Shown: piece after piece, positions 13,722 through 43,201 of the stretch
How positions within the stretch are numbered: position 1 is the stretch's first letter
Layout: every line of letters starts with the position of its first letter
DNA from: a virus
Reading direction: 5' to 3' (one strand)
Length of the DNA: 64,000 nt
Virus record (IMG/VR): IMGVR_UViG_3300048593_000672
Span: 1-64,000 of that record
Made by a program: the position numbers and the translations under genes
Notes under the pieces: generated by a model
Databases searched by the model: none
Seen by the model: only the letters and a program-made list of their open reading frames with translations
What the model was told of the DNA's origin: nothing

Positions 13722-14279
13722 ATGAGAACCAAAAACTTTATCAAGACTGTCAGATCGTTAATGACTGAGACTGACCACCAAAAAGAATTTGACAACTACG
13801 TTAAATGGGAGTCAAAAAAGACAGAGCAAGGCAACCGTAACATTGATCTGTTAGCTCAAGCTGTTAATCAAGCCGTAAGCAAAGTCAATAAAACAATAGA
13901 TGATTTTAGCCGCTCTATTATTGATTGCTCAGATCGGGTTAATGAGTTTAAGAGCCTCCTGCCTATTGAGGGAGAATACAAATTAATAAGACTTATCTCT
14001 CCTAGTCGTCTTTTTATGGGGTTTGCTGATCCGACTTTTACGGTTCCCATCCCAGAATCGTGCCAAGTTTCCCCAATGAATGTGACTTGTAATTATGGGG
14101 GTTATAACAGCAATGGCGTATGGGGAATAGATTGGTATCGAACTGTGATGGGTGGCTTTGATGTTGATTTATCTGAAGCCAACGACAAAATGCACAATTG
14201 TCCCTATTTTGTCAACAGTTCCCAACTAAAATGTACAGCAAACCCCACTAATACTAATTGTTTGGAGTGTAATGAGTAA
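13722..14279 (+). CDS. Hypothetical protein with cyanobacterial Cys-rich C-terminus (DUF6464-like)
   Basis: CPYF..SSQLKCTANP....CLEC. Confidence 0.55.
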   Translation: MRTKNFIKTVRSLMTETDHQKEFDNYVKWESKKTEQGNRNIDLLAQAVNQAVSKVNKTIDDFSRSIIDCSDRVNEFKSLLPIEGEYKLIRLISPSRLFMGFADPTFTVPIPESCQVSPMNVTCNYGGYNSNGVWGIDWYRTVMGGFDVDLSEANDKMHNCPYFVNSSQLKCTANPTNTNCLECNE

Positions 14280-15061
14280 TGCTATTCACAACCCACGACC
14301 GCAACCTTATCATTGACAGCGAAACTTATTTAGCAGCCTACAGTTTTGAGCCAACTGCCATCGAAACAACCGCCACACTCGACCCCAACAATGCAGAATT
14401 AAAGTCAATCTATAGCGATCAAATCACACCAGCTTTTGTTTTGGGTGGTGGCTTGCGCGACGCTAAAATCATTCACTTACAGGGTGTAGATTGGCGATCA
14501 CTTCCCCCCACCGTTGAAGCCCATCCCTTTAAAGAAGTTGGGCAAGTCGGGAAAGTTACTGGCAAGGGTCGGACTGCTTTTACCGTAGAAAATCGCACTC
14601 GCATTAGTGCTGCTCTCGCTGGTGCTTCTGTCTTAAAGACCAGTCCACTTTGCTTACATAATTTCTGCGATGTGCCAAGAGTCGTCATTGGGGGGGGCTG
14701 TGGATTAAGTATTGGCTACTATACTCATCAAGCTACCGTTGATACTGTCAACAGCCAGTCCAGCTTTCTCTTGTCTAGTACCAGTGATTTTACCTATGGC
14801 TATATCGAATTTACGTCTGGAGAAAATGCCGGGTGTCGATTTGCTATTAGCACTGGCTACAACGGCGCAATTGAGCTTGCTGAAATACCAGAGGGAGAAG
14901 TTAAAGTAGGGGATGAGGTAACAGCCGTTGGGGGCTGTGCCAAAACTCCAACGGCTTGTCAAGCCTATGGCAACTTCATAAACTTTATGGGCATTCCCAC
15001 CGGAGGGAGTTGGATACCTGGGATGGACGCAGTTCAAAATGCACCAATTGAGAGGGCTTAA
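14279..15061 (+). CDS. GTA-type tail hub/baseplate protein (DUF2163 / BR0599 C-terminal), N-terminally short
   Basis: FTTHDRNL, C.H.FCD, FTSGENAG, GCAKTPTAC..YGNFINFMGIP. Confidence 0.85.
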   Translation: MLFTTHDRNLIIDSETYLAAYSFEPTAIETTATLDPNNAELKSIYSDQITPAFVLGGGLRDAKIIHLQGVDWRSLPPTVEAHPFKEVGQVGKVTGKGRTAFTVENRTRISAALAGASVLKTSPLCLHNFCDVPRVVIGGGCGLSIGYYTHQATVDTVNSQSSFLLSSTSDFTYGYIEFTSGENAGCRFAISTGYNGAIELAEIPEGEVKVGDEVTAVGGCAKTPTACQAYGNFINFMGIPTGGSWIPGMDAVQNAPIERA

Positions 15062-15064
15062 GCA

Positions 15065-16886
15065 ATGACTGATAAACTACAAGCACCAGCAAAGGGTGAT
15101 TATGTTTTAGCCACACTATATCCTGATGGCAATGCTGCCGATCCTTGGTTTATTGGCTATTACGATTGTCTGAGTAATGATAATCCTCCCCGTCATTTTA
15201 TTTTAGATAATGAGGGAAAAAGAGACTATCACTCCTATCGAAAAGTGTCAGTAATCACACAAGATATTGGTGATTGGCTAATAAAAGAAAAAGACAAGCT
15301 TGAAACATTGAATAAAGACTTGTGGCCCATTGTAAATAGACTATTGAGAGGGCTTAATGTACCTTCAAGTTGATCTTTTCGGAGAACACCAGCCAGTGGA
15401 TAAACATGGCAATCCGTTGAAAATTGGGGATAAAATCAAAATCTCTAAAGATGATACTCTAGGTGCCACTGTTATTGGTTGTGAAGTCAATCTAGTTGTC
15501 TTTGACGGCTATCGTACAATGTCATTTGACTCTAGTTTATTGGAGAAAATTAACAATGACTAAGGAACAATTTGCAGCAATGCTTGATGATCGTCAATAT
15601 GGCGATGAAATCACTACTGGAGAGTGTAAACTAGCTAATGAACATGGTTTGTTGGTTGTCTTTGGGGATAGTGATGATGGAGTAAAAATGCGTGGTTTTT
15701 ATCATTACTTCTTCAATGCAATTAAAGGTGGATCGTGGCAGTTCTTTCTGACTGACAATAATGAACTTGTTTTCGCTGCACAAGATAGCTTGTTTTCTTC
15801 TGCCATAGACAGGAGCAAGCCATTAATCATAGAAGCCAATTGGTGTCCAGATAATCTTGATACTTCATGGCTAATTAAAGCCAATGTGGATTGTGCAACT
15901 TTTGACATCTTTGAAGATGATGAACTATTTTGTCGGGGTGTCGTTCTCGATAAGAAAGATATTGTTAAAGCATTATTAGGAGAGAATTAACCATGATTGA
16001 CTTTACACCCCTTGAATTACAAGTTATTCACACAGTCTTACGATTAACCAATGAGAAAAGTCCTGAGCCACTTCCAGAGTCTAGTCGGGAATGGGCAGAT
16101 GCTATGAGGTCGGCTATTAAAAAGATTGAAGACTTTGCCAAGTCGGGAGATTAATCAATGACAACTAATACCAGTAAAGGAATGATTGAAGTTGATTGGG
16201 GAGTATCAATAGAAATAAACTCCTTAACGGTTCAGCAGCCAAGTGGATTACAGGGAGGGATTTTTGTCGAAGCTCTTTATTGCCATAATGGGCAAAAAAA
16301 ATGGCGAATTAAATCCGAAGCTTATTTTTATGGAAAAGATAAAACATGGATTGATTTTTACGACAAAGAACAATTTACTGACACTTACTGTTGGGACGAT
16401 ATGGTAGAAGCATTTTTATTTGCTCAAAAACATTTAATTGAAAATTAGGGGGTTAACAATGCCAGACAATAACTCAACAAAGTATAGTATCAGCCAAGCT
16501 TTTAGATTGGCTGGGCGAAAAGCTGCAATTGCACTTCAGGAAGAACGTCATGAATTTGATAAGCCTAAAAAGCAAAAACCTAAAAAACAAAAACCTGAAT
16601 GGATGAGGTTGGATCAATGAGCAATAAAGTTTTAAAGCCTGCAAAAGATTTAGTTGTTGGCGAAAAATTCAACTTTAATAATGGGGAAAAACCTTCATAT
16701 GTGTGGGTAGTTGACAGCATAAAAAAAGACCCTCGATTCCCCAACGAAATAGAACCAATGGATGTGTGGGAAATCACTTATCACATGGAGCATCCTGATA
16801 TTCAATCCCCCCGTCAGCATTTTGTCCACGCTGATAAAAGTGATCTTGTTTTAGCGATAGTTAACGCACCCCCGCCCGTAATTTAG
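15065..16886 (+). CDS. Cluster of small hypothetical early genes (15065-15373, 15357-15563, ~15556-15990, 16158-16448, ~16617-16886)
   Basis: Overlapping start/stop codons, same strand. Confidence 0.5.
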
Positions 16887-19800
16887 CCAACTGGCGATCG
16901 CGTTCAATCTGACTCATTGACTTGCCAAGATCATTCGTGTTAGCCACTTCAATCTTAATGGTTTGATTGAAGTTGTTAACAGTTCCCTCGCTGGTATTAG
17001 TCTGAGTAGTGTTGGGGATGTAGGAAACAGGGCCGCCCTTGGCAAAATTCTTAACATCCTTGGCCATACGTTCTGACCAGTCTTTATAGTTGCGGTAGTC
17101 GCTGGCTTCGTTTGCAGAAATCACATACTCGTCAGCATTAAGGACGGCCAGGATGGGCCGCTTACCACCCGACTGCGACCTCTCCCGATTCATTGCTTGA
17201 CTAATGCCTTCTACCAGTCCCCCACCCGCATAATTATCAATCTTGAGGGGGTCAACGGGGCCGCCGTCGGCAAAGTTGAACGCATGACTAATCATTCCTG
17301 TAAAGCCGCCCGATAAGCTGTCAGCTATTGATTGACCCGCACTGGCATTACCAGCGTTAAACAGATTGCCAAAAATATCACTGCCAGCATTGATAAAGCT
17401 ACCGCCGCCGCTAACTGTTAAAGCACCAGCAAAAGCAGATAGGGCTGTAGTCGCTTCTGTCAGTCCCAAAATAAAACCGGCCATGGCGGGGTCAGTGGAA
17501 GTAATACCAGCGAGGAAAATGTTATCCATTGCTTGGCTGGTATTAGTCGTTGATTCCGTCAGGCTAGTAAATGCACTACTCAAATCAATTGTGTCGGGTA
17601 AAGCTTGACCTGTTGTTAATGTATTGCTTAAGTCAAAAGGCACAATGTTGTTGGCCGCTATGCTTGCCCCCCGCTCACCTAGTCGCGTAATTACATGGGG
17701 ATAAAATTCTTTGTTATCCAGACCGAGCATTGGCCCAACCCATTCAGCGATCGCATTTTGGAAGGGTTTGATAGCTAACTGCTCTAACATCATCCCCAAA
17801 ACAAGATCCTTGACTTTGTTGAGCGACTCCCCTAGTCCCTTAGACTCTAGGATCGCGCTACGCAGCCCCGAACTAAACTCTTTTAGACCTGGGATAGCGT
17901 CAACAAATGATCGCTTAATATTTAACTCACTAATCTCAGCCTGAAACCGCCGCATTTCACTAGCCTGTTGAGGCGAGTAAGCACCATCCCGAATCTGCTT
18001 CTCTAAATCAACTCTGGCTTGAGCCGCTTGCATCCGAGCATTAATAATCGCACTGGGGTCAATTAACGTTCCCATTCCCCAATCATTCTGCGCCCCAACG
18101 TCATAACGGGTTTTGTAGAGGTCAGCTTGAATTTTGGCATAACCCTGTTTAGATGCCATAATTTTATCGAGTCGCAACCAGGCTTCAGTGGCTCGTTTAG
18201 TGGGTTCTTCTAACGCAGCCATCGCCTTGGATTGCCTGTCAATTTCTTCCCGACGAGCTTGCATAATGGGAATGCTGTCGGTATAAAGTTTTAAATTGCT
18301 TTGATAAACAGACATAGCTTGCAACTCTTGAGTAGTTGCTTGGCGACCAGCTTTCGTCAGTTCAGCTTGCTTGTCAGCTAAGGCTTGTGCCGCAACCGCC
18401 GCACCAATATAGGCATCATCCATCTGTCTGCCAAGATTCCGCAATTCATCATCAAAATCACGGTTCATCTGGCGGAATTGTACACTAACTCCTTCTACAG
18501 CCAGGTTAATCTCATCAGCAGCCGTTTTATAGCCCTTGCTGTTAATGGCTAACTCACGATACTTGATATTGTTATCCTCAACTTTTCGACTCAAGTTAAG
18601 AGCCATATCTTGAAGGGATTGTAATTGCTGTTGGAAGGCATTGTTGAACTTGACCACCTCAAGATTGCCTTGCAGATCAAGCACAGCCCGATTGACCCCA
18701 ATTGTCGCATTCTTAACATCATTAATCTGACCAGCCGTATTAGTTAAACTACTCGTATCTTGTACAGTGATTGGATTTTGATCTGTAATTTGCTGTAAGC
18801 CGCTATAGTCATTAATTGCCCTTGGCTGGTATTTTGTAATAAATGGACTTTGTACGTTTGGCAGGACATTTCCCCCATTCATATCAACTTGAGGCTCAAG
18901 TTGAGAAGGTTGATAGCCTGGGAGTGTTTGATATTTTTTAATGTTGGGGTTGACATTGGCATTGCTACTACCAATCCCCTTGGCCGCATCAACTCTTGCC
19001 TGACTTTCCTTAAATTGTTTGGCAATTGCCTCAGTGCGTTTTTTCCAATCCTTCGACGACATCCTATCAATAAACTTAATGCCTTTTGACTCATAAAACT
19101 CATCAAGTTTAAAGGCTTCAGGATAAAGTTCTTTTTGATATTTGATAATATCTTCTAATGGCTTGCGGCTAATATTATTTGGATCGTTCAACTCAGCTTG
19201 ACGTTTTCTTGCCTTCTCCTGTTCGATCCGTTTGGCCCGCGCAGCAGTAGTGGCATTAGTCTGGAAAATTGCAGATCCCATATCACTAATACCCTCACTG
19301 GCATCAGCGACTAGCCACTCTTTGGGGGCCGCCGATCTCATTTGATTGTATAAGATACCCCTTACTCTAGATAAAGACTTCAAGTATTTAGATCCGTAGG
19401 CTGGATCTGTAGCATAGCGACCATAGCGACCCTTAAAGTCACGGTTGATAAAATCTTCAGGAGTGCTAAAGAAAAAGTCTTTTTTAAGTTTAATTGCTGC
19501 GTACTCTAAGCCCTGTCCGTAGGTTTTAAAGTGCTTGTTATTGCCAGCATCATCGTTGCCATAGTTCAGTGGGTTTTTAGTAAACTTCCCTCGTCCCTTG
19601 GTTCCAAAATGGCTTTCAATAAATGCTTGAGTTACTAAGGCATCAATGCTAACTCCTGACTTGGTAGCAGCATTTTTAAAATCCTCAACTGTCATTTGAG
19701 AACCATACTGGTTCAGCAATCTTGCTAAGTTTTTCTCCCATCCCATCGATTGAGTAGTAGCAGCCTGCGCCGGAGCGGTCAAGATGTTTTGCGCTGGTAC

Positions 19801-22800
19801 TTGTAGTTGATACGATGTTTTAACTTGCTTTGGTGCAGCAAGATTTAATCTCATCCCCCCGCCATACTTGCCCATCAGCCCGTTTAGTCCATTAACATCC
19901 CCAGGTGCGTAGTATTTAGTTGGTTGTACGACCGCACTTGGCTGACCAATCGGGACTGAGAACGGGACTCGTTCAACTACCGACTCACCGTAGCGGGGAT
20001 CGATATTAATACCAGCAGAGGGATTGTATGAGAGAGGGGCGGCTGGCAGTGAAGGGAGCTTGTTTTGATAGCCGCTATTGGGAGCTTCTTTCGTAATCCG
20101 GGTTATGATTTGCTCTAGCTCACGCCCTAACTTAATAGATGACGACTCCATCTGCATCATCATTGACCTAAACTGTTCATTGAGCCGGATGATGCTACGA
20201 GTGCGTTCCTCTTCGGCCCGCAGTTGTTTCTCCTGTTCATCCCGAATGCGCCGGAGAGTCGTCACATACTCTTGGCCAACCTGACGTTGTTTCTCATCAA
20301 GCGATCGCCCTTCCCCTTCCAAATTGCCGATATTCGCGAGGAAGTCAACAAAGATACTGGCAGTCTTTTTACCAATACTGTCGGGTTGGAAGCTGATGGA
20401 TTCAACAGCCAGCGTAGCCTTAGCTTGTCTCAGTTTCTCGCTGGTGCTTTTAAGTTCATTCTGAGCGGCCAATAGTTGACCTTCCAAATCAAACTGTAAA
20501 TCAGCCCAAGCCTCCTGCAAACCGCGAGTCTCGATAAAGGCATTACGGGCTGAATCCTGCACAGACCAGCCAAAGTCACGGACTTGTTGTTGCCAACCAA
20601 TCTCAGTCTCTAGCACAGAGCGGTTAAAGTCCTCTACCGATTGACCCAAGCCCCGATAATACTCTTCAGTGTTCTGTCCCGACTGCATCACTGCAAACTC
20701 AGCTTTAGCTACAGCTTCATTAGCACTTGCTAGTTGTTTAGCTAACTCTACTGGGTCTTGGGAGTTATCCTTAAACAGTGCTTTAACATCTCTTAACTGA
20801 CGTTTAGCTGTAGCCAAGTCATTGTAAGCAGAAAAAGCTTGAATATCTTGAGTGCCAATTTTGCCCTTACTAGCAGCTTGATACATCTCAATATTCGTGT
20901 TGCTAGCCGCAATCTGGGTGTTAGCTTGACGGATAGCATTGAGTCGTTGTTGCTGTAGCTTTTCAAGATCAATTTGAGCTTGTAAAACTTTGCCCTCTAA
21001 CTCATTCGCTTGCTGGTATTTTTCTTTAAACTTAATAGATTGCTCTAAGAAAGTTTTTAGTCCCCCGCTAATACCATCCCCAGATTCAACCAACGCCTTC
21101 ATTGTCTCCACGCTGGTATTCATGATCATGTCTAGGGGGTCTTTATATTTCTCCCCACCACGACCTCGTAACTCAAGCCGGTTCATTGCATCCTGAGCGA
21201 CACTTGGCTCTAGTCCATTTAAAGCAAAACCTTTAAATGTTTCAGCATCTTGTTTAACAGGCAATAATTCCCGTTTGGCAGTAGTTAAGTTATCTAAAGC
21301 TTGCTGGCGTTGTAAATCAATATCATCAAGTTTTTGATTAAGCCGAGCTTCAAGTAATTGATTATTACGACGACTTGCTAACCCCTGATTGTATTCAGCG
21401 ATATTAGCACCAGCAGAAGAAACTAATTGACTAGCTCCTTGTAAACCAGGAATCTTTTGGTTGATAGAACCAGTGTGCATTCTGATTGCTTCTAGCCTGA
21501 CGTTGGTATCAGACATTAGCTTGGCAATGACTTCTAGCTTTGCCTCACGTGCTTGAGCGTCGGGATTCTTTTTGACTGTCTCCCTCATAGCCTCATAAGC
21601 TTTATTCATCTGCTCTAAAGCAATCTGATTGCCAAAAGTTTCATTGACGGCTTTTTCTCGATCCCCCACCTTTACTGCCAACTCAGCACTAAGGTTTTTA
21701 AACTCCTCACGGTTGTTACCACCCAATTTACTGTTATTAGCTAAACGAGTTCTGATAACAGCAATCTCTCGATCTAGCTGAGAAATATCAGCTTTACCTT
21801 TTGCAAGGTTTTGGGGATTAGCGTAATTTGCATCCGCCTGTTCGATCAGTCTTTTGCCATAGCTAATACCCCTGTCAACTTGCTTGAGGTCTTCCATCAA
21901 ATCCCGCCGATCATCCTTATCCATGCGAACGGATTTGTAGATATTGCCTTTTTCGTCTCGGTAGTCAATAACGATGTTATTTATGCCACTATTTGGCGCA
22001 CTTGGATCAAAGCCAAATGGATGGGTGTAGTTATTTAGAACACCACCAAAAACTCGTTGGGCAAAGTCGCCAACTCCAGTGATAGGTGTTGGATTGCTGC
22101 CACCAAGTCTTGTGTAAGTTGGATCATTTCGATCAACCTTATTGGGGTCTTTCATCTTGCCAGTCAACGTATTAGTAGCTTCCAGATTATTAATCATCTG
22201 CTCTAATTCATCGTTAGTCTTTTTCAATTCCCCGTGATAGGACTGCCAAATTTTAGTTCCTTTATCAATCGCAAATCCAATAGCAGCAAAAGCAATTAGT
22301 TGGGGGGCGATCGCATATAAAGCACTTCCGATACCAGAAAGCGCACCAGCTGTAGCAGCTAAACCCCTTACCGCCACATTGCTAGACGATCCACTGATAA
22401 CCAGGTTCGTGTTTAGTTTGGCTAGTCCAGTATTTAAGCCATTGAGTATCCAGTTATTAGTCATAAACTCAAGCCCCAAAACCTTGAGCGCAATCGTTAC
22501 AACTCTTGAGGCTGTTCCCGTATCCAGTAAAGCAAAGACAAATTTAGCCCCAAGCATCGTTACTAAAAGTCCCAGACTCGCCGTTAATCCCGTCGCTACA
22601 CTGTTAAGCGCATTCATCCCACCAACAGCTATATCCATTGCTGGCTTGCCAACTCCCAAGATTGTTTCTCCCATCCGACCCTGTAGTTTTTCCTGGGCGT
22701 TCTGGAATCGGGCGATACTACCGAGCGGCCCTTCCTTCACCGTATTAATCGGTAATGTTGCTTCGTAGGCTAGTTGTTTGGCCAAGGGTTGCAAGTCTGT

Positions 22801-25800
22801 TTCGGGAAACATCTTGCTATTTTTCATCTGGTTGGTTAACTGTTCATGGGTTAATCCCTGGGAACGAGCCATAGCCCCGATAGCTTGGGGTAGTACCTCC
22901 GCAAGCTGCGAACGTAGTTCCTCGGCCATTATTTCGCCTTTTCCGATCATCTGAACTACACTGAGGAACGCCCGTTGCTGTTCATCGGGCGTTGCACCCT
23001 GACCAACCAACGCAGCCGAGAACCCTTCAAAGATTTCTTGTACCTGGGGCGCAACGGTGGTGTTGGCGGCGGCGACTGTTAACTTAGTGAATGACTGAGC
23101 AGCAACCAACGCATTAGCTCCAATCTCATCAGCGTATTGGGCGATCTCCTTTAATTTACTGGCTGCATTAATGCTTGAGTCGTAAGTTAAAGCCGCTTTC
23201 ATCCGTTCCAATTGCAGGGCGGTATCAATACCAGTGCGGGCAAAATCAACGAGCACCTGTTCGACCTGCTGAAAGCCCATGTACATCAACAGCCCACCAG
23301 CAAAGCCTTTGATGTTTTCAATGATGCGGGCAAGACCAGGCATTTTTTCTTCTAATGCCCCCATGATCCGACCTAAGCCACGAATGCCAGCACCAGCGGC
23401 ACCGGCCCCCGCTTCAATTTCATCAAGAATGTTGTTAAACCATTCCCAAAATCCCTTATCGGCATTTTGAGGTGCTTGAGCAATCCCCGCAACCATATTG
23501 TTAGCACGACTATTAATAAAGTCTTTGGCATTATCGCCCATGCGCCGAGGTGCTAAATCATCAACAGTTAAACCACGACGAGGCGGCACTGGATTGGGAG
23601 AAGCACCAGCAGGGGGAATAGGTGGTTTGCGGGGGGGTTGTCCATTGCCACCACCAACAGGAACGTGATTATAAAGTCCAGCCGCCATAATGCGATTGGC
23701 TTCTGCAATTTGCCAGGCCTGACCTGTTAGGGGAGTAGAATCTCTCACTGGTCTTGTTGCACTTGTCTGTTGCTGTTGAATTTCCGAAACCCACAATTGA
23801 AGAGCATCACCCCATACGTCATCACCATGTAGCGGGGGGGACTGACTTGCAATCACCCTATTATTAGGAGGTAATGGTGGAGGGACAATTCCTCTCGCTG
23901 GTGTTTGTGCCTCGGATAGAGGAGGTAGCGGTAGAAGATTAGATACCCTGTCTTGTGCAACAACAGCATTTAATTCTTTTTCATAAATAAAGGAAACAGC
24001 CCTTTTATAACCAGTACTGTTAATATCCCTCCCGATATTGATGTTTTTAATATCGCGAAGATACAAGTTTTTAAGACCTAAAGCCTCTTCTTTGTAATTC
24101 TCAATATTTTTCCAACCCTCTTTTTCTAATTGGGGAACTGGCAAATCAAGCATCTCAATTGATTGGATAGCACCATCAATACCAATCTTGTAGCCTAAGA
24201 CTAAATTCTCACCAATCTTGATAAAGACTTTACTGGGCGATTTTTCCCCCAGAACATCCATCGCGGTTGTGATAAGTTTTTTGCTGGTGTTGGCGATCGC
24301 AGCAATCGGCTCACCCTCCGAACCAGTAATACCAGCCGTCAGACCTTTATTGATGTTTAGACCGACTCGTTCCATCTTTCCATAATTTTCATCCCCTTCC
24401 ATCTCTTTAAAGCCATATCCGGCCCAAAGCCTTTCGCTACGAGCATCTATTGGGGATGTACGAATTGTGTTGGAGCCGACTACACTAAACAATTCTTGCA
24501 TCCACAAATCAAGTTGTTTGCGAAGGGCTGCACGAATAGCGGGGTCTTTAGTTGGTTTAAAATCTCCATTAACCATTAGATCGGATAGATACCAACCCAT
24601 AGTCTTTGACACATAAGCGTGTAGATCTAGCTTTTGCCCTTCAACTACTGCACTTCTAGTAAACCTAGTTCCTACTTCGGGGGGTTGAATTTGACTGTCT
24701 TTTGTTGTCAACTCTATTCTTGGCATAGAGGATTCAATTGACAGCTTTTTGTTGATGTCAAGGCTGGCTTTTTTACCTGTAGCAATGATTTTATCAAGAT
24801 AAGAAAGTATATTTTTCCTGACAGAATCAAAGGGTAATGTATCTGTGTCAGAAGCATTTGGCAGCATACTCTCTGCCTCTAGAAATGCTTGTTTTGCTGG
24901 ACTATCTTCAGTTTTGTTTACGACTCTTCTTTGAAAGCTTGAGTGATTAAAATCTTTAACGATACTACTGACATTCGCATCTTCCGCAAGTCCATAGTCA
25001 ATCGCTCTTAGCTGCCCTTGTTTATCTATTAAAATATTGCCACCATGTAAGTCATTGTGTGCAATACCATTTTCTATTAAAGACTTTTTGAGTCGAATAA
25101 CTTCTTTAAAGAAAGACTCTGGATACTTCCCGCCATCAGAAATATTATAAGCATCATTGGCAGTTTGCCCCCGAATCAGTTCCATTGCAATCGCAGCGTC
25201 ACTAGAGCTATATCGCTTTGATCCCAAAACCCTTGGGCCAAGTCCAAGCTCTCCGGCCCTTCGAGATAGTTCTATTTCCTTGTCTGTTATTTGTCCATGT
25301 TTTAAGGCATATCCTCCCATATCATAGACAGTTCCATAAAGACCTTCCCCCAGTGTTTTTATCCCAGGAATAGTCTTAAATTCCCATTTATGATCATATA
25401 ATTCCTGTTCTGTAGGGATATTTATGGCACTTTCGTTTTTTTGTATCGGCTGCTTTGTTACTGTCCTTTGTTTGATACTATCCAAAGCAGCTTTATTCCC
25501 ACCACCCCATTCATAATAAGTTTCAAGTGTCTCAGCTAAGTTGTCTGCAAAATTATGACCAAATTGCTTAGATTGGGCAAGTTCTCTTTTAACAATGCTT
25601 TCAATATCGCCAATAATCGCCGCCATTTCTTTCGGCACTTTCTGAGCAACTTGGCTAAAGTCTAAGCCTTGATCTAGTCCAGCAACAATGTCTTGACCAA
25701 TCTCTTTAAATACCAGCGAGGGAGAATTACTTTTGAGCGTCTTTTTACTACTAGTAATCATTTCCCGCAACATTTCAATCGTTGCGTCTTTCGGCAAATG

Positions 25801-32132: not shown

Positions 32133-32588
32133 TTACCTATAAGAATTTGTTTGCGTCACAATTAAATTCATTCTAGCCTGTGCAGGATAAATTGCACCAT
32201 CTAGTTCAGCGTATGGTCTAATTACTGGATTTTGATGAATAACGAAACTACTCTCAGATTGAATTTTGCTAATAGCGATCGCCAACACCCCGTCATAATT
32301 CCACTGTCTCAGGATTAGCTCAAACAAAAGATGATAAGACTTTAAAGCCAACAACCCCCCATCATTCATTTTTGGCTCAAGATTTAAGATTGCCTCAATG
32401 CCAGAGCCATCAACGATCTTATAGTTTTGGGGAAGGTCGGGGGGACTTATCCACACGGCTGGTATTTGTCCCTGTTCAACCTGATACAGCCCCAGGTCAT
32501 CAGCTAACAAAAGTCTAATAGCATCTGAGACATTGAGGGCAAAAGTGTCTAGTTGAGTTTGGGTGATGGACATAATAAATACCAGCAA
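32133..32588 (-). CDS. Tail terminator/completion protein (putative)
   Basis: Position between the gp10-like gene and the tail tube. Confidence 0.5.
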   Translation of the reverse strand: MLVFIMSITQTQLDTFALNVSDAIRLLLADDLGLYQVEQGQIPAVWISPPDLPQNYKIVDGSGIEAILNLEPKMNDGGLLALKSYHLLFELILRQWNYDGVLAIAISKIQSESSFVIHQNPVIRPYAELDGAIYPAQARMNLIVTQTNSYR

Positions 32589-32593
32589 AAAGA

Positions 32594-33073
32594 TTAGTAA
32601 TCAAATTCAGTTGTCTCAGTCTCAACCGTAATATCCCTCAAGCCAGCATCCTTAACGTACCGACCACGATCGTCGCGCAACCTGGTAACACCCCTCTTGT
32701 CCGTAGAAAGATTCGCTTTAAGCTTCTCGGCTATGCGCTCGGCAATACTCATCCCATCTTCCAGCGCATCGGACATAAAGGGTCGGGCGGGTAGAATCGC
32801 ATGACCGTTAGAGCCGCCTTCATGCACTAAATCACTATACTTAGCCGTGTTAAAAAACTTAACGTGAAGACCGTTAATATCAACGTCTTGGCTCTCTAAC
32901 AAATGCTCCGAGTCCAAAATATCCCTTGGACTGCCAGCAGGGGGTTTATGTTTACGGATAGTCTTATTGGGCCAATACCAGTGTGGAGATTCAATATTGT
33001 CCAGAATCTCATTGTGGATTTCATACGCAACTTCGGCTAAGGCAGCCTCTACCAGTGGATTAATGTTAATCAC
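32594..33073 (-). CDS. HK97 gp10-like neck/tail completion protein
   Basis: RDILDSEHLLES, YSDLVHEG, PARPFM. Confidence 0.75.
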   Translation of the reverse strand: MININPLVEAALAEVAYEIHNEILDNIESPHWYWPNKTIRKHKPPAGSPRDILDSEHLLESQDVDINGLHVKFFNTAKYSDLVHEGGSNGHAILPARPFMSDALEDGMSIAERIAEKLKANLSTDKRGVTRLRDDRGRYVKDAGLRDITVETETTEFDY

Positions 33074-33121
33074 TTGACAACTAAGTTTGCTATAGTATTA
33101 TCAATCATAACATTTTACGGT

Positions 33122-34768
33122 ATGCTGTCCTTCCCCCTAATTGAATCGTTAACCATTCAAACAACAGTTGACTTCCCAAAGAATCATATCTTGAGAGATG
33201 ATAAAGGGCGGGAACAGCGCATTATCCCCCACCAAGCCCCACTACGCAAATTTAACTTAACCAAAAAGATATTAACTGCCAGTGATGTTAATGATCTTTA
33301 TGACTTATTTGAAAGCATGAAGGGGGCTGGCGATAGCTTTCTTTACCAAGATAAATCAGATTATAGGGCGACTCGTTTAGCTAATACTTTCTCTGCTGGT
33401 GTTTATACTCAAGGCGTAATTATTAAAAGTGGTAGCACTTATTTACTTTGCAAAAAATACGCCTGTGGCGATAACATTCATTACCGTCCCATCTATCATG
33501 CCGACACATTAACGATTTACAGTGGTGATACGGTTGTGACAGGCTGGACATTCTTTGACGGTGGCACAATAACTGGATTATCTGGGGATGGCTATACTGC
33601 AAACTTTACTTTTAAAACCCCCGTTAGGTTTGAAGTTGATAAGCTTGAAAACGTCATCTCTACAAGCAAAAATAGCTCAGGTCGCTTACTTTATTCGCTT
33701 AACAATGTAATGTTATCTGAGACGCGACAAAGCATCCCTATCATCCTCACAGATACATTTCTAGACGATTGTGGACATACTTTTCAGATAGATTTCCTGT
33801 TTAACGCTACTATCAGCAAAAACTACACTACTGAGATAATCCCATTAGCCAGTGGATATGAAAAACGAACCTCGTTACAGGATGATGGCATTACTGAGAT
33901 TGACTTTGGCGATCGCACTCAACTAACCCAAGATCAACTTGAATACTTGCTATGCGTTTGGCTAAATACTAAGGGCTGTGGCGCATTCTTCAACTTTGAA
34001 GATGAAACAAATACCAGCGTGGGAGCAAGGTTTGATAATATCCCTTTAAGTTACACACAGCGATCGCCACTCCCCTATCCCAAATATGAAGTTAAGGGAT
34101 TAAGAGCAAGATTATTTTATGAGGGAATTTTAGAGGATACCGGCTACAACGGTTGGACTGGTTCTGTTTTGACGCTGTGTGATTGTATTAAGATTAAAAT
34201 AGAAACCCCACCTGCTATTACCGTTATTACCGTGCTAACCTATACGACGGGACAAAGCACTTTCGGTTATACGCTCTTACTAAAAGCGGCTCATTATGGT
34301 ACTTACGCGCAGTCGGATACGGTTGTAGGGACGTGGACTGACTTAACAATTGTTGGGAATGGCCCGATTATTGTTAGTGGTTTCTGGACATATGTAGGTG
34401 GATTTTCAATGTTGACCTATGGCGGGCCTATTGTAAACGGCATAAATTTAGGATGGCACGGTGGAGGCATAGACGAGGGTGAAGTTTATGTTTATCCCCG
34501 TTCAAATCCTAATGCACCTGGTTTCTCAACGATTGGCTCCATCTCTTATCAAATAGTGTTATCAAGTAATGGAAAAAGAGATATTATTCAGTTACCCTAC
34601 ACTAATCTAATTAGTATTGAAAGCGTGAAAAATATTAGCCAAACAATTACCTACATTGAGAGTGTAGATTATGAGATTGTCAGCCTTGTTAGTGGGCAGA
34701 TTAGACCATTAGTGGGCGGGGCGATTGAGGACAACCAGCAGCTAATTATTAGTTATTCAATAGCCTAA
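33122..34768 (+). CDS. GTA-type distal tail protein (two tandem DUF2460-like domains) with C-terminal extension
   Basis: GREQR...FLYQDKSDY...FKTPVRFEVD; second unit SGYEKR...ARFD; the TTG at 33074 is a -35 box, so ATG 33122 is the likelier start. Confidence 0.8.
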   Translation: MLSFPLIESLTIQTTVDFPKNHILRDDKGREQRIIPHQAPLRKFNLTKKILTASDVNDLYDLFESMKGAGDSFLYQDKSDYRATRLANTFSAGVYTQGVIIKSGSTYLLCKKYACGDNIHYRPIYHADTLTIYSGDTVVTGWTFFDGGTITGLSGDGYTANFTFKTPVRFEVDKLENVISTSKNSSGRLLYSLNNVMLSETRQSIPIILTDTFLDDCGHTFQIDFLFNATISKNYTTEIIPLASGYEKRTSLQDDGITEIDFGDRTQLTQDQLEYLLCVWLNTKGCGAFFNFEDETNTSVGARFDNIPLSYTQRSPLPYPKYEVKGLRARLFYEGILEDTGYNGWTGSVLTLCDCIKIKIETPPAITVITVLTYTTGQSTFGYTLLLKAAHYGTYAQSDTVVGTWTDLTIVGNGPIIVSGFWTYVGGFSMLTYGGPIVNGINLGWHGGGIDEGEVYVYPRSNPNAPGFSTIGSISYQIVLSSNGKRDIIQLPYTNLISIESVKNISQTITYIESVDYEIVSLVSGQIRPLVGGAIEDNQQLIISYSIA

Positions 34769-34847
34769 AGCTTGATATAAAAAATGGTTGAGTGGAAAGT
34801 AGCCTAGTCAAGTGATACCACGCTCTAGATATTGAACTATATTTTAA

Positions 34848-35066
34848 TCACAGGTATCTTAATGCAGTTGCTTCTGTATCTGTGATTGCCCGATTAAACA
34901 TAGAAAAAGACGAGACAACTCCATTAAAAAACCATGTATTATTGTAGCTACCCAGTCTATAAACATGATTAAAGTTTAAAGGCGTAACGTATGACCCAAA
35001 CGCACCATACCCTCTCTGGTAAATATTAAAGCTGGAATTTCCAGTTGAGCAGCAAATTGTTGTCAT
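34848..35066 (-). pseudogene. C-terminal fragment of a LamG/concanavalin-like receptor-binding domain
   Basis: FNGVVSSFSMFNRAIT..E..AL is a LamG C-terminus; only 72 aa. Confidence 0.5.
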
Positions 35067-35068
35067 TT

Positions 35069-36007
35069 TTATTCTCTCAAAATACCATATAATCTTATTT
35101 CAGCGCAATCCGCGTAACTTGTTGCATTACTAGTAAATCGATAGAAAGAATAATCAGCAGTATTTGAAATAGAAGGAGAGTACCAACTCGAATCATTCGG
35201 AGTTGATAGCCCTGTTGCTAGGGTTGTCCAGTCCGTCCCATTGTTTGAGGCTGAAATACTGAACGGATTAAAACTCCAGCCTCCTTGCCTGGGTAACATA
35301 GAAATTCTATCCACCATCGCCGTTCTGCTTCCATTAAATTTAATAGTGAAATTTGGGTTTGCTTCATAATTACTATGGAAAAAATCAGTATTGACTCGGT
35401 TTGTTGCCTGAGCAGTGATCAAACCAGCATAGTTACTTGATTCACTAGCAGTAATAAAGCCCCTTGTGTGAGGATTTATAAAATTCTCAGTCGCCGCATT
35501 TGTTCCTAAATAATAAAGAATATCATTCGTATCATTGTCGCTGACATAAGTACAAATAATACCAGGTGGCACATAACCTGGTAGCCAATTGATAGTATAG
35601 GAACCAGTGATAACCTTAATATTATGATTTGTATCTAATAAGAAAAAATCAATTGAATTATTAGCATCTATTTTAACGCCTTTATTGGCGGGTATAGTAA
35701 CCCCATTTACGGTTGAAAGTCCATAAAAAACAATGTATTTTGTGCTTAAATTTACCCAAATAATATGTTCACCAATGCCTAAACTTGAACAATCTATGCC
35801 GATATTAGCCGCTATGTTATCGGTAAAATAATAGCCGCTAGAAGTCAAGGCAGTATTTTGATTGATGGGTAAGGAAAATTTGATACTTCCATTGAACGAG
35901 TTAGGATTGTCTGGCGCGATCGCCCCTCCACTCCCAACCCCTGAAGTAGCAGTTGACCGGAGTGTTGCCATTCTCCCGTCAATCAATTCGAGTGAGCTTT
36001 TCATCAA
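35069..36007 (-). CDS. Tail fibre/receptor-binding protein with discoidin (F5/8C)-like domain
   Basis: SASNNGTDWTTL, YSFYRF, AEIRLYG. Confidence 0.7.
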   Translation of the reverse strand: MMKSSLELIDGRMATLRSTATSGVGSGGAIAPDNPNSFNGSIKFSLPINQNTALTSSGYYFTDNIAANIGIDCSSLGIGEHIIWVNLSTKYIVFYGLSTVNGVTIPANKGVKIDANNSIDFFLLDTNHNIKVITGSYTINWLPGYVPPGIICTYVSDNDTNDILYYLGTNAATENFINPHTRGFITASESSNYAGLITAQATNRVNTDFFHSNYEANPNFTIKFNGSRTAMVDRISMLPRQGGWSFNPFSISASNNGTDWTTLATGLSTPNDSSWYSPSISNTADYSFYRFTSNATSYADCAEIRLYGILRE

Positions 36008-38342: not shown

Positions 38343-38350
38343 TTTAACCC

Positions 38351-38584
38351 CTACGAATAACGCCCTAAAATTTGAACTGTAACCTTGTTTGCTGTGTCTG
38401 TTACTGCCTGAATAGTATCGTTAACTGCTGACAGTGTCAAGGAATAGGGGAGATCAAAAATAAAGGTTTCTTTAGTGGCAATTTCTCTTTCAAAAAATAT
38501 GTTAGTTGTATCTGATGCTGTGCCAACACTCCCCCCTGAATTAGGGACATTATAAAGCTTTACCGTTTCTGCTGTTGTAATTGT
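38351..38584 (-). pseudogene. 5'-truncated tail structural gene remnant
   Basis: Open frame TITTAETVKLYNVP...DTIQAVTDTANKVTVQILGRYS* with no ATG, directly after a TAA. Confidence 0.6.
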
Positions 38585-38600
38585 TTATTATCAAAGATAA

Positions 38601-40184: not shown

Positions 40185-40188
40185 GATA

Positions 40189-42783
40189 TTAAAGCCAGTA
40201 TTGTAATTTTAAATAGTTTGTCGCATCGGGCGGTGAGGTTATCACAAAATCCGTTAAACTTTCACCACTACTGGCGGCGGTGACAGTAACCTTTCCCGTC
40301 TTGGTTGTGGCTGCGATAGTCCCTGTTGCCAAAGCGTCAGAAACAACAGAAAAAGCATTAATCCCCACACTATTGATGGCAGCACTAGTCGCACCCGTAA
40401 AGCCCACACCAAAGATAGAAATTGCATCGCCAATCGCTCCTTGAGTTGGACTAAAACCCGTAATAACTGGAGTAACAGTTGAGAGCGTTGGGGCGATCTG
40501 CACCGCTAACGGATAGCCACGCCCAACTATTGCGCTCAACTGATAGATTTTAACACTTAAATTAGTTTGGACAGAACCAAAATCTGTTACCTGGTCAGCC
40601 GCACTATAGCTTATCCCTCGGCTGGTGCTTGTCAATGTCCTTGCGACACTCAACCCGTCCATTACGTCAATCTCGTATCGCTCCGAAACCTCACTCATTA
40701 AACTTGAGGGGCTTGACCAGCCATCGTGACGATCGCGGCGATCCCATGCAATTGCAATATTCCCACCCTGGTCTTTGGTCGCACTTGCACTGACAGGGGA
40801 ATAGCATTCTAGAGAAATACCAGCAGAGGAAATTGCTGTGTAGCTTGCCACCGATGGCTCACTCCCATTAACCCCAACCGCTTTCAGTCGCAATGACAAG
40901 CCTATATCGGACTGGGCTAGTTTAATTTTGCCCAAATAGCCACTCAACAAAACAAACTGCTCATTTGTGCCATGTCCACTAATAGCCCAGTCAGTCCCCC
41001 GACAACCCCGCTTAAACTCACTCAGATCATAGACTCCGGTAGAGATGAGGGCTGCATCCCTGGCCATAATAATTTCATTGCCCAAGCTAAATAAAATCCC
41101 ATTATTCAAGTCAAATTGGGCTTGAGTCACAGAAGATAGTTGTCCTGTACAATCACTGACCCTAATTGTCGTTGCATTACTGGCCGTGGCTGTGGCGACA
41201 ATCCCGACAATGCTCTTACTGCTAACACTGGCAATACTTTGATAGCTTGCACCAGAATCCCGACTAACATAAATGTTTCCACCCCGCCAATTGGTATCAC
41301 CCACAACAGCAATATATCCCGTCCCATCTGGGTCGCTATCAGTAATAAGGGAGATGTCAAGGGGGATAAGTGTAGCAGTGCCAATAGGTGTAGTGGTTGT
41401 TTGAGGATAATCAATATCAGCGTCAATATCTGGATCTGGATAAACCGGCTGAACAATAATCGGCGTGTCGGGATCGCCTGGGTCGTATGTGACACTTCCA
41501 TTAGCACCAGCGCAAAAAAGCTCAATGAGGTAGTTAGTCCCAACCGTCTTTTTTTCTATCCGCCATAAACGATTAACATTTCCCTCGTTAATTGATATGC
41601 AATCTCCAACATTAAGCCCGTTATAACAGGGCATTAAATAAAGCTTTTCAAGCTTATGCTTGTATGCTTTAGACTGATACAGCAATCGGCTTGCCACTCG
41701 TCCCATATCCCCGTCATAGCCGACAATTGAAGTAGTAAAAGTATCTTCTTTTGTATGCGTTGCAGCCGGATCTTTATAGAATTGAAATCCCTTATCATGA
41801 TCCTTACCAGCATTGGTAAATGTAACCCCAACAAATGAGGGCATATCTAGGGGATCGGGTTCAGGTCTTTCATAGGGAGTAATTGTTGGTGTTTTATAAT
41901 CCCTTGCCCCTAGCGCATCAAGATCTATAGATTTTGTTAAAGAAGCATTGCTAATACGATCAAAATAAAGCTTGTCATCAGACTCCCAATAATAGAGAAA
42001 GTTGATTCGACAAATATCTTCTATAAAATCTTTAAAACTACTCCCGCTATTTTCATAGACATCACCAGCGACATTAATAGATCCACAATCCCCTATAAAA
42101 ACAACATCCTCTTGAGTAATTCCGTCCTTGGCTGCAACGTGCCAAATCAAGTCCTGTAGATCGGGATCTTGACCAAATCTAAATTTTGCCTCTACGTCTA
42201 TTTTGGGAAAACCAGACCCCTTATAAAGTTCAATCGGGTACTCATTAAAAGCTAATAAACTACATCCTCGAAAGGCTGGAACGTAGCCCTCTAGAGATGT
42301 TAGAAGATCTAGTGGGCTTTGATCTGCCCTTCCTAATCTCAATTCGGTATGATCATTAAATTGCTGAATTACATCCCCAGAATCCCAAGCTGTATAAATC
42401 TGGACTCCATTAGCCCAGACACGATTAAGTCCCTCATCAGAAATCTCACCACCAATCAAAAATACAGCAGTCAAATAGTAATTTGCTGTGTCAGCATTGG
42501 TAACTGTCGTATTTCCACCACCCCCTTTTCCGCCCGATGACTGAGTAGTGGTCGTAGTTGTGATGACTTCCTTTAATGACTTTGCATAGATCAACGAACA
42601 GCCATTAACTCGATTTAATCCATATAAATCACGAATTAAATAGCCAAATTCACTATTCGGTGCGCCTAAGTTGTCTAATCTTTGGGCTGGTGTGTTGACA
42701 TAATTTGTAGTGTGGGGCGCAAATAAACGGCCCAATAATCCGATACCAGCACTAGCAACAGCAGGAATAATTAAATTAGCCAT
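40189..42783 (-). CDS. GTA-like host specificity/central tail tip protein with C-terminal IPT/TIG domain
   Basis: GGKGGG, PAFRG, RG.RGTD, SEVSERYEIDV, PVITGFSP. Confidence 0.85.
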   Translation of the reverse strand: MANLIIPAVASAGIGLLGRLFAPHTTNYVNTPAQRLDNLGAPNSEFGYLIRDLYGLNRVNGCSLIYAKSLKEVITTTTTTQSSGGKGGGGNTTVTNADTANYYLTAVFLIGGEISDEGLNRVWANGVQIYTAWDSGDVIQQFNDHTELRLGRADQSPLDLLTSLEGYVPAFRGCSLLAFNEYPIELYKGSGFPKIDVEAKFRFGQDPDLQDLIWHVAAKDGITQEDVVFIGDCGSINVAGDVYENSGSSFKDFIEDICRINFLYYWESDDKLYFDRISNASLTKSIDLDALGARDYKTPTITPYERPEPDPLDMPSFVGVTFTNAGKDHDKGFQFYKDPAATHTKEDTFTTSIVGYDGDMGRVASRLLYQSKAYKHKLEKLYLMPCYNGLNVGDCISINEGNVNRLWRIEKKTVGTNYLIELFCAGANGSVTYDPGDPDTPIIVQPVYPDPDIDADIDYPQTTTTPIGTATLIPLDISLITDSDPDGTGYIAVVGDTNWRGGNIYVSRDSGASYQSIASVSSKSIVGIVATATASNATTIRVSDCTGQLSSVTQAQFDLNNGILFSLGNEIIMARDAALISTGVYDLSEFKRGCRGTDWAISGHGTNEQFVLLSGYLGKIKLAQSDIGLSLRLKAVGVNGSEPSVASYTAISSAGISLECYSPVSASATKDQGGNIAIAWDRRDRHDGWSSPSSLMSEVSERYEIDVMDGLSVARTLTSTSRGISYSAADQVTDFGSVQTNLSVKIYQLSAIVGRGYPLAVQIAPTLSTVTPVITGFSPTQGAIGDAISIFGVGFTGATSAAINSVGINAFSVVSDALATGTIAATTKTGKVTVTAASSGESLTDFVITSPPDATNYLKLQYWL

Positions 42784-43201
42784 CTATCACCCCTGGCACT
42801 TCATACACTTTGATAATACGATGAACATTGCTCTCCAATGTCCCGTAACAAACTTTTCTCGCCGTTGCGCTGGCATGAACAAACTTTTTTTCATCCACAA
42901 CAATTGCAGAATGGGTATCTAAATTATTAAACTTAATCGCTAAAACATTTGCGATCTTAATAACGCTTGATTCGACTAAATATTTTTCTAATTGCCGAAT
43001 CATAAAAGAGCCTCTGGCTAATGGCTCATAGTTGGGAATTATGTCATCTTTATCAACAAAGCCAACATTTTTGCCAACACCAAACAACAATTGCACACAA
43101 TCAACCCCCACCCCCTTAACGCATTGATGATGATGATAGGGAGTTCCAAGCCATGTTAAGGCTTCCGTAACAATTTGCTGTCGAGTAATCTTAGTTGCCA
43201 T
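42776..43201 (-). CDS. NlpC/P60 tail peptidase
   Basis: WLGTPYHHH...GVDC, H.AI...FVHA. Confidence 0.9.
   Translation of the reverse strand: MATKITRQQIVTEALTWLGTPYHHHQCVKGVGVDCVQLLFGVGKNVGFVDKDDIIPNYEPLARGSFMIRQLEKYLVESSVIKIANVLAIKFNNLDTHSAIVVDEKKFVHASATARKVCYGTLESNVHRIIKVYEVPGVIDG

What the first reader, a model, noticed from the sequence alone, without database searches (positions are those of the whole stretch)
14279..43201. Scrambled GTA-type tail-tip module with an apparently split hub gene
Established order: TMP - Dit (DUF2460) - hub (DUF2163) - NlpC/P60 - host specificity protein. Seen: NlpC and the host specificity gene lie upstream of the tail tube on -. Dit is inverted on + at 33122-34768. 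The hub is on + at 14279-15061 among early genes. The hub begins at FTTHDRNL and lacks the usual first strand (TLC.CW.I), while VLTLCDCIKIK appears inside the Dit ORF at ~34166-34200, before a ~190-aa extra domain. Inference: an ancestral Dit-hub fusion received a domain insertion and then split, so the two polypeptides would complement in trans. Programmed DNA rearrangement is a less likely alternative.
Basis: partly seen in the sequence, partly recalled or inferred. Interest (0 to 1): 0.75.

Follow-up and report, generated by a model that had tools for sequence, protein, structure and literature searches.

The report
Tail hub domain split across two genes
In this lake-water cyanophage the first beta-strand of the tail-tip hub protein is encoded at the end of a different gene (the distal tail protein) 18 kb away, a conserved split of one protein domain that probably reassembles when the tail tip is built.

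Summary
The hub (14279-15061, +) matches DUF2163 profiles only from about position 30, and it is the only hub in the 74.7-kb genome. The distal tail protein (Dit, 33122-34768, +) is a tandem, JBD30-gp49-like double Dit. It is followed by GSVLTLCDCIKIK (34160-34198) and a 189-aa module.

Relatives settle what that motif is:
- In a natural Dit-hub fusion (P0015) it lies directly before YTTHDR, and a canonical-hub profile aligns it to the hub's first strand.
- About 35 fused representatives exist.
- Short Dits in this clade end right after the motif.
- In a complete 79.6-kb relative the two genes are adjacent, separated by a stop codon and 5 nt.

The Dit and hub trees both nest the split clade among fusions.

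The scrambled gene order is collinear with that relative, and only the Dit has moved. Independent lake metagenome contigs bridge the Dit's 5' junction, so misassembly is unlikely there.

Strand donation in trans is inferred, not shown. I rate this a new variant of the GTA/lambda-type tail tip, of moderate interest.

The parts
33122..34768 (+). Distal tail protein (Dit) gene, 548 aa from the ATG. It reads double Dit, then hub strand beta1, then a C-terminal module. It is the only + strand gene inside the - strand structural block.
   Evidence: PF09343 89 bits. TIGR02217. Homologues start at this ATG. It is the only Dit hit in the whole genome.
33074..33101 (+). Sigma-70-like promoter (TTGACA, 16 nt, TATTAT) in the 48-bp gap between the divergent neck gene and the Dit gene.
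   Evidence: 11 of 12 consensus matches. This is a consensus match only. A related strain has a 1-nt insertion at 33112, which fits this stretch being non-coding.
33122..33736 (+). Dit tube-like domain 1 with its insertion domain (P0002 residues 17-221).
   Evidence: PF09343 residues 38-197. Aligns to the single-domain Dits of R4C (Z 12.2), RcGTA (Z 8.2) and lambda gpM (Z 6.3) over model residues 13-221. pLDDT about 90.
33764..34132 (+). Dit tube-like domain 2 (residues 231-353), a second partial DUF2460 copy.
   Evidence: PF09343 positions 5-86, E 2e-5, below the cut-off. The whole of residues 8-358 aligns to the trimeric double Dits of JBD30 gp49 (Z 13.6) and phage Chi (Z 14.6). Residues 234-352 alone align to tube-like proteins.
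34160..34198 (+). GSVLTLCDCIKIK, the first beta-strand of the DUF2163 hub attachment domain, carried on the Dit polypeptide.
   Evidence: Nearly invariant in the clade. Contiguous with YTTHDR in the fusion P0015 and aligned there to the hub N-terminus. The model gives a short strand at 365-368 with pLDDT 52-58.
34199..34765 (+). 189-aa C-terminal module, a probable surface decoration or adhesin with an Ig-like end.
   Evidence: 56% identical to the C-terminus of P0017, whose Dit part is 28% identical. Replaced by unrelated modules in P0008-P0011. Weak hits to Ig-like tail-tube decorations: PHROG 807 E 6e-4 and NF052337 E 1e-3. Not modelled, pLDDT below 50.
14279..15061 (+). Hub (DUF2163 plus BR0599) lacking strand beta1, 260 aa.
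   Evidence: Four invariant cysteines at C125, C141, C220 and C227. Close homologues at 71-92% identity start at the same place. It is the only hub in the genome.
13722..14279 (+). 185-aa ORF of unknown function. It overlaps the hub start (TAATG) and sits where the Dit sits in the complete relative G001.
   Evidence: No family hit. Overlap shown. No homologue in G001, where the Dit occupies this slot.
16861..29763 (-). Tape measure protein, 4300 aa, convergent on the hub block.
   Evidence: TMP_3, kinase-like and glucosaminidase hits. Homologous to the 5808-aa ORF of G001.
40189..42783 (-). Host-specificity / megatron-like baseplate protein (GTA g15 type).
   Evidence: PF13550 and PF23666. NF048004 E 2e-66. 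PHROG 4271 E 3.5e-83.
42776..43201 (-). NlpC/P60-type cell wall peptidase (GTA g14 type).
   Evidence: TIGR02219 E 1.2e-11, below the cut-off. GVDC, HSAIVV and FVHA motifs are present.
35069..36007 (-). 312-aa protein with a discoidin (F5/8 type C) domain, convergent on the Dit. Probably a fibre or receptor-binding protein.
   Evidence: PF00754 E 3.4e-6, just below the cut-off. A 306-aa ORF lies in the same position in L003, but its homology to this ORF was not tested.
32594..33073 (-). Neck / tail-completion protein, divergent from the Dit.
   Evidence: PHROG 5 E 8e-5.

Best explanation
This is a freshwater cyanophage-type siphovirus with a GTA/lambda-type tail tip.

Shown:
- Its Dit is a tandem 'double' Dit of the JBD30 gp49 kind, which forms trimers in the solved JBD30 structure. 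Dit and the DUF2163 hub would therefore be present three to three.
- In this lineage Dit and hub were at some point one polypeptide.
- In the clade that holds this phage, the polypeptide has been cut inside the hub's N-terminal attachment domain, in the hairpin between strands 1 and 2. The Dit ends with hub strand 1 (GSVLTLCDC...). The hub starts two residues before strand 2 (FTTHDR).

Inferred:
- During tail-tip assembly the Dit's C-terminal strand inserts into the hub's beta-sheet and completes the attachment domain. This strand donation fastens each hub subunit to one Dit subunit.
- The cut created two free, surface-exposed ends that accept extra modules. Here the Dit gained a 189-aa swappable decoration, probably an adhesin.
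- Once the genes were separate, the Dit gene could move. In this phage it sits under its own promoter next to the fibre and host-specificity genes. The hub stayed at the ancestral site, convergent on the tape measure gene.
For: Hub truncation:
- The hub lacks roughly the first 30 profile positions in three independent profiles.
- Eight hubs from at least four assemblies start at the same point.

Identity and conservation of the strand:
- The motif is nearly invariant in a family with 42% mean column identity, even where it forms the extreme C-terminus.
- In P0015 it runs straight into YTTHDR and aligns to the canonical hub strand, with a hairpin 6 residues shorter.

Fusions:
- 35 fused proteins were counted: 17 direct fusions and 18 with inserts of more than 45 residues.
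- P0072 carries a roughly 215-aa insert inside the same hairpin.
- P0026 and P0028 carry other domains on the cut hub N-terminus.

Pairing and phylogeny:
- In all three genomes where both genes are visible (window, L003, G001), a Dit with beta1 pairs with a hub without beta1.
- The Dit and hub trees agree.

Structure:
- Double-Dit fold: Z 13.6-14.6 to JBD30 gp49 and the phage Chi chain across both halves.
- The JBD30 Dit is a trimer with three DUF2163 subunits (PMC11445458).
- In RcGTA the hub attachment domain contacts the Dit C-terminus (PMC7296036). In R4C it is the main docking surface for the distal tail (PMC10276861).

Assembly checks:
- The genome is collinear with a complete relative that has terminal repeats.
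- Contigs from other lake metagenomes bridge the neck-Dit junction.
Against: - No structure or multimer model shows the strand inside the hub sheet.
- The strand has only pLDDT 52-58 in the monomer model.
- The canonical-hub HMM alone does not detect the 12-residue segment in the Dit significantly (best E 11). Its identity therefore rests on the fused homologues.
- P0015 is nested within the split clade. It may be a re-fusion, or, being a single Logan contig, an assembly artefact.
- Tree roots are midpoint only, so 'fused first' is not proven.
- Expression of either gene was not observed.
Confidence: 0.7

Rival explanations
1. The TLCDC strand is simply the Dit's own last strand. The hub works without its first strand, and nothing is complemented in trans. 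Only the gene boundary moved.
For: The monomer model gives the strand low confidence and no partner. The segment alone is not significant against a hub profile.
Against: It is homologous, and contiguous in fusions, with the hub's first strand. It is nearly invariant although terminal. It co-occurs strictly with hubs that lack that strand.
Confidence: 0.2
2. A misassembled or chimeric contig placed the Dit and the hub apart.
For: The genome is a metagenome-derived linear record.
Against: - L002 (hub 85% identical) and the complete genome G001 show the same hub context.
- Contigs of three other runs from other studies bridge the neck-Dit junction, two of them without a mismatch.
- L003 independently has a split pair.
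- No contig bridged the Dit 3' end by 31 letters or more, so that junction rests on the source assembly and on the L003 analogy.
Confidence: 0.02
3. A programmed DNA inversion or deletion reunites the Dit and the hub into one gene.
For: The Dit is a lone + strand gene among - strand genes.
Against: - Both genes are already on the same strand, 18 kb apart, with the tape measure and tail genes between them.
- Only short repeats of 12-24 nt flank the Dit, several of them built on the HIP1 palindrome.
- No joints appear at the Dit flanks in four runs, though contigs can hide rare forms.
- The hub has its own start codon and a GGAG box 11 nt upstream.
Confidence: 0.02
4. The hub ORF is a decaying N-terminally truncated remnant, and another protein does its job.
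For: It lacks part of a domain and lies outside the main structural block.
Against: - It is the only hub in the genome.
- It is conserved at 71-92% identity with 58 invariant columns, including the four cluster cysteines.
- The same truncation is kept down to 34% identity.
Confidence: 0.03

Closest known systems
RcGTA / roseophage R4C tail tip (g12 Dit, g13 hub, g14 peptidase, g15 megatron; PDB 6TEH, 8GTC)
   Same: All four gene families are present. The hub has the attachment, cluster-binding and BR0599 parts with four cysteines. The hub attachment domain is the Dit-docking element.
   Different: - There the Dit is a single-domain hexamer and the hub carries its own first strand. Here the Dit is tandem and carries that strand.
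- The gene order g12-g13-g14-g15 after the tape measure gene is not kept.
- The megatron homologue matches only the C-terminal half of that profile.
Pseudomonas phage JBD30 gp49 and phage Chi tail-tip chain B (double Dit, trimer; PDB 8RK3, 8VJH)
   Same: There are two tube-like domains per chain (Z 13.6 and 14.6 over model residues 8-358). This gives three Dit subunits to three DUF2163 subunits.
   Different: Sequence identity is 8-12%. In JBD30 the DUF2163 protein (gp50) is a separate gene from the Dit gp49 (PMC11445458), and a DUF2163 chain in phage Chi is deposited separately from the Dit-like chain. Whether their N-termini are complete was not checked. Neither Dit is reported to carry a hub strand.
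Lambda gpM-gpL-gpK-gpI-gpJ versus the single-chain hubs of T5 and LSH1 (hub encoded by one to three polypeptides; PMC13243795)
   Same: The same structural unit is cut into different numbers of polypeptides in different phages, with fusions and non-covalent partners.
   Different: The known cuts lie between domains. Here the cut lies inside a domain, after one strand, and the fusion partner is the Dit rather than the downstream hub domains.
'Evolved' Dits of lactococcal and Lactobacillus siphophages, with carbohydrate-binding insertions (recalled from my own knowledge, not checked here)
   Same: The Dit is used as a platform for extra, exchangeable, probably host-binding domains.
   Different: Those modules are inserted in the Dit's galectin-like arm. 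Here the module follows a donated hub strand at the C-terminus.

Membership tests
DUF2163 baseplate hub (PF09931 + PF09356, TIGR02218) | Complete N-terminal attachment domain, including the first strand (TLAxCW about 17 residues before FTDHD). | tested here: not met
   The hub polypeptide starts at profile position 30/160, 31/287 and 34/280. The strand is on the Dit polypeptide instead.
DUF2163 baseplate hub (PF09931 + PF09356, TIGR02218) | The rest of the attachment domain and the BR0599 C-terminal domain score above Pfam's cut-offs. | tested here: met
   PF09931 58.6 bits (cut-off 26). PF09356 50.3 bits (cut-off 22.9).
DUF2163 baseplate hub (PF09931 + PF09356, TIGR02218) | Four conserved cysteines that hold the iron-sulfur cluster. 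| tested here: met
   C125, C141, C220 and C227 are invariant in alignment A2. The homologous cysteines of P0015 align to those of the RcGTA hub. Metal binding itself was not tested.
DUF2460 distal tail protein (PF09343, TIGR02217) | Profile match above the cut-off and a Dit fold. | tested here: met
   89.2 bits against a cut-off of 30.4. The profile of A1 hits the RcGTA and R4C Dit chains at E 7e-16 and 2e-13. Z 12.2 to the R4C Dit.
Double (tandem) Dit that forms trimers, JBD30 gp49 type | Two tube-like beta-sandwich domains in one chain. | tested here: met
   A second partial PF09343 match at residues 237-319. The model aligns over both halves to 8rk3_D residues 167-567 (Z 13.6) and to 8vjh_B (Z 14.6).
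Double (tandem) Dit that forms trimers, JBD30 gp49 type | Trimeric ring in the virion. | not testable with these tools
   Needs a multimer model or cryo-EM.
GTA-type tail-tip module (g12-g15) | All four gene families are present. | tested here: met
   TIGR02217, TIGR02218, TIGR02219 and the megatron profile all hit. Three of the four fall below NCBIfam's equivalog cut-offs.
GTA-type tail-tip module (g12-g15) | Contiguous order TMP, Dit, hub, peptidase, host-specificity protein on one strand. | tested here: not met
   Hub at 14.3 kb (+), TMP at 16.9-29.8 kb (-), Dit at 33.1 kb (+), g15 and g14 at 40.2-43.2 kb (-). The same layout, except for the Dit, is seen in the complete relative G001.

The most novel reading that the evidence does not exclude
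The hairpin cut acts as a plug-and-socket that lets this phage group exchange the Dit (with its host-range module) and the hub independently.

In relatives where the two genes are still adjacent (G001/L004), the hub lies in the -1 frame and a run C TTT TTT C sits just before the Dit stop. Ribosomes might slip there and make both the separate and the covalently fused Dit-hub from one locus, as the G/GT tail chaperones are made.
Probability: 0.1. Interest if true: 0.7.

Novelty: new variant of a known kind. Interest (0 to 1): 0.5.

Why it matters
This would be a natural case of a protein domain cut after a single beta-strand and rebuilt from two gene products inside a virus machine. A series of fused, insert-bearing, adjacent-split and dispersed-split relatives shows how it arose.

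- It identifies a tolerant, surface-exposed site in the Dit-hub junction where phages add host-range modules. That is useful for annotating tail tips, where these hubs look truncated and these Dits look over-long.
- It is also useful for engineering siphophage tail tips.
- It documents a widespread Dit-hub fusion that my two searches of the held library did not find described.

Tried and rejected
- Single-sequence AlphaFold of the fusion P0015 gave pLDDT 29 and was useless. This used one of the two structure jobs, so no alignment-based model of a fusion (P0015 or P0072) could be made.
- The C-terminal module was not modelled (pLDDT below 50).
- The word-based homologue search on the module found only the 97% twin P0007.
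- Atlas hits for the module scored below 0.8 by features and below 0.5 TM by structure, so they are leads only.
- The canonical-hub HMM does not find the strand in the Dits on its own (E 11).
- The metagenome-contig scan found no relative.
- The genome-contig scan gave one spurious 47-residue match.
The contigs of P0012-P0016, P0015 and P0072 could therefore not be inspected, and the co-location of P0004 and P0009 on one 43.9-kb contig is only suggested by the equal contig length.
- No PDB sequence match was found for the peptidase.
- The tail tube was not identified. For the 315-aa ORF the Atlas gave only a weak 'tail assembly chaperone' lead.
- No RNA holder was listed among the sequencing runs.
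- A split intein was considered and rejected. The hub has only two residues before the conserved strand, and I saw no intein-like motif after the Dit strand on inspecting the sequence.
- The upstream 185-aa ORF was considered as a strand donor and rejected. It has no beta1-like segment and is not conserved in G001.


Full report
WHAT THE WINDOW IS

The window is bases 1-64000 of a 74,687-bp linear IMG/VR virus record, estimated 94% complete. The palindrome GCGATCGC (HIP1) occurs 31 times against 0.25 expected. From my own knowledge HIP1 is typical of cyanobacterial genomes. The stretch is held by many lake-water metagenomes. I therefore read it as a freshwater cyanophage-type siphovirus.

CHECK OF THE OBSERVATION

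The hub ORF is 14279-15061 (+), 260 aa, and starts MLFTTHDRNL.
- It matches PF09931 only from profile position 30 of 160, plus PF09356.
- It matches PHROG 778 from 31 of 287.
- It matches a profile I built from 39 canonical hubs from position 34 of 280.
- An in-frame TGA lies two codons before the ATG, and a GGAG box lies 11 nt upstream.
- It is the only hub match in the whole genome.

The Dit ORF matches PF09343 at 89 bits.
- All homologues start at the ATG at 33122.
- The upstream TTG is the -35 hexamer of an 11/12 sigma-70-like promoter.
- VLTLCDCIKIK is residues 365-375 (34166-34198), and 189 residues follow it.

The peptidase (42776-43201) and the megatron-like gene (40189-42783) are confirmed. 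The 4300-aa ORF at 16861-29763 (-) is the tape measure protein.

WHAT THE TLCDC SEGMENT IS

A search with the Dit found eleven relatives. In the alignment the motif G-S-V-L-T-L-C-D-C is nearly invariant, while mean column identity is 42%.
- Four relatives of 356-365 aa end three to eleven residues after the motif.
- Others carry unrelated C-terminal extensions.
- One, P0015 (615 aa), is a natural Dit-hub fusion in which the motif runs straight on as ...TLCDCVKLNNLYTTHDRP...
- In P0015, Pfam places PF09931 positions 7-160 on residues 344-497.
- My canonical-hub profile aligns TLCDCVKL to the consensus first strand, with a hairpin six residues shorter.
- Canonical hubs have TLAxCW at residue 18 and FTDHD at 35, and some have TLCxCV.

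HOW COMMON THE FUSION IS, AND HOW THE SPLIT AROSE

An exhaustive profile search with P0015 returned 3133 proteins.
- 35 Dit-hub fusions: 17 direct and 18 with inserts of more than 45 residues.
- 8 full-length hubs that start at the THD motif.
- 29 stand-alone Dits.

Three proteins show that the hairpin tolerates additions:
- P0072 has an insert of about 215 aa inside the beta1-beta2 hairpin.
- P0026 and P0028 have other domains on the cut hub N-terminus.

The trees agree with each other:
- In the Dit tree, the 13 Dits with beta1 plus P0015 form one clade (99 SH-aLRT). That clade sits inside a 33-row clade (99) that is otherwise made of fusions plus one clade of Dits without the strand.
- The hub tree mirrors this.
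- P0015 is nested within the split clade in both trees. It is most simply a re-fusion.
- Roots are midpoint only, so the direction of change is likely rather than proven.

SYNTENY

L004 lies in G001, a complete 79.6-kb genome with terminal repeats.
- There the helicase gene is followed by a 384-aa Dit that ends ...GSVLTLADCVFFQV, then a stop, then 5 nt, then a hub that starts MFATTSHDRP.
- Both genes converge on a giant tape measure gene.
- The window genome is collinear with G001 through primase, helicase, hub, tape measure, tail genes, g15, g14 and beyond.
- The exception is the Dit. In the window it lies between the neck gene and a discoidin-domain fibre-like gene, and an unrelated 185-aa ORF fills its old slot.

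L003, an 8.5-kb contig whose Dit is 55% identical, shows a third arrangement. Its Dit is convergent on a fibre-g15-g14 block and its hub lies 5.4 kb downstream.

The unusual order is therefore a property of the group. The hub is at the ancestral site, and only the Dit has moved.

THE EXTRA DOMAIN

Residues 376-564 are 56% identical to the C-terminus of P0017, whose Dit part is only 28% identical and lacks the strand. Dits whose Dit parts are about 95% identical (P0008, P0009) carry unrelated C-termini.

This is module exchange at a free C-terminus. It fits acquisition after the split better than 'insertion, then split'.

Weak hits suggest an Ig-like decoration at the very end. The domain itself was not modelled.

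STOICHIOMETRY AND FOLD

- The Dit has a second partial DUF2460 copy.
- The alignment-based model is confident for residues 17-350.
- It aligns over both halves to JBD30 gp49 (Z 13.6) and to a phage Chi tail-tip chain (Z 14.6). Single-domain Dits cover only the first half.
- JBD30 gp49 is a trimer with two tube-like domains per chain, next to three copies of a DUF2163 protein (PMC11445458). A 3:3 ratio explains why a Dit-hub fusion is viable here.
- In RcGTA the Dit is a hexamer. The hub attachment domain contacts its N-terminus, its long loops and its C-terminal residue (PMC7296036).
- In R4C the attachment domain is the main docking surface for the distal tail (PMC10276861).

MECHANISM

Shown: the domain is encoded in two pieces, the arrangement is conserved, and covalent versions exist.

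Inferred: the Dit's C-terminal strand completes the hub's sheet in the assembled tail tip. In the monomer model the strand is short and of low confidence (pLDDT 52-58). That is what one would expect of a strand without its partner, but it proves nothing.

ARTEFACT CHECKS

- L002 (hub 85% identical) has the same hub neighbourhood.
- Contigs of three other runs bridge the neck-Dit junction, two of them without a mismatch.
- A roughly 96% identical strain covers almost the whole Dit. It has a 9-nt deletion just after the strand and a 1-nt insertion upstream of the ATG.
- No joints appear at the Dit flanks.
- The Dit 3' junction was not bridged by a contig.
- Repeats around the Dit are short.

COMPARISON AND NOVELTY

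The field already accepts that hubs are cut into one to three polypeptides at domain borders and are varied by fusion (PMC13243795). Two things are new here: a fusion across the Dit-hub border, and a cut inside a domain. Two searches of the held library, one for the two DUF names and one for four Dit/hub/cyanophage terms, found no description of either. I class this as a new variant of a known kind.

Noticed in passing
window 1-64000: The HIP1 palindrome GCGATCGC occurs 31 times against 0.25 expected by shuffling. This points to a cyanobacterial host. Holders of the stretch are lake-water metagenomes.
   Followed up: partly
window 16861-29763 (-); G001 59240-76666 (-): The tape measure proteins are giant: 4300 aa here, with kinase-like (residues 1520-1605) and glucosaminidase (3360-3463) hits, and 5808 aa in the complete relative.
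   Followed up: no
L004 9960-9995: In the relative with adjacent split genes, the hub is in the -1 frame relative to the Dit. A run C TTT TTT C lies just before the Dit stop, and the hub frame is open from 9962. A -1 slip would give a fused Dit-hub. This is speculative.
   Followed up: no
window 33074-33101: A near-consensus sigma-70-like promoter (TTGACA, 16 nt, TATTAT) lies 20 nt before the Dit ATG, in a 48-bp divergent gap. The lone + strand Dit would therefore be its own transcription unit.
   Followed up: partly
window 35069-36007 (-): A 312-aa ORF with a discoidin / F5-F8 type C carbohydrate-binding domain is convergent on the Dit. The region 34848-40184 has no counterpart in G001, so it is a variable host-recognition region.
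   Followed up: no
P0026 (476 aa), P0028 (798 aa): These hubs lack strand 1 but carry 218 or 537 residues of other domains on the cut N-terminus, partly shared between the two. They form the basal branch of the split clade.
   Followed up: partly
P0072 (831 aa): This Dit-hub fusion has an insert of about 215 aa exactly between hub strands 1 and 2. It is a single-chain analogue of the window's two-protein arrangement.
   Followed up: partly
window 56343-57923 (-) versus G001 25479-28313 (-): The large terminase is 526 aa here but 944 aa in G001, at 68% identity over 476 residues. G001 may hold an insertion such as an intein.
   Followed up: no
window 34216 and 33112: A strain about 96% identical in another study has a 9-nt deletion right after the donated strand (as P0007 does) and a 1-nt insertion in the Dit leader.
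   Followed up: no
window 13722-14279 (+): A cysteine-rich 185-aa ORF with no family hit is translationally coupled (TAATG) to the hub and occupies the ancestral Dit slot.
   Followed up: partly
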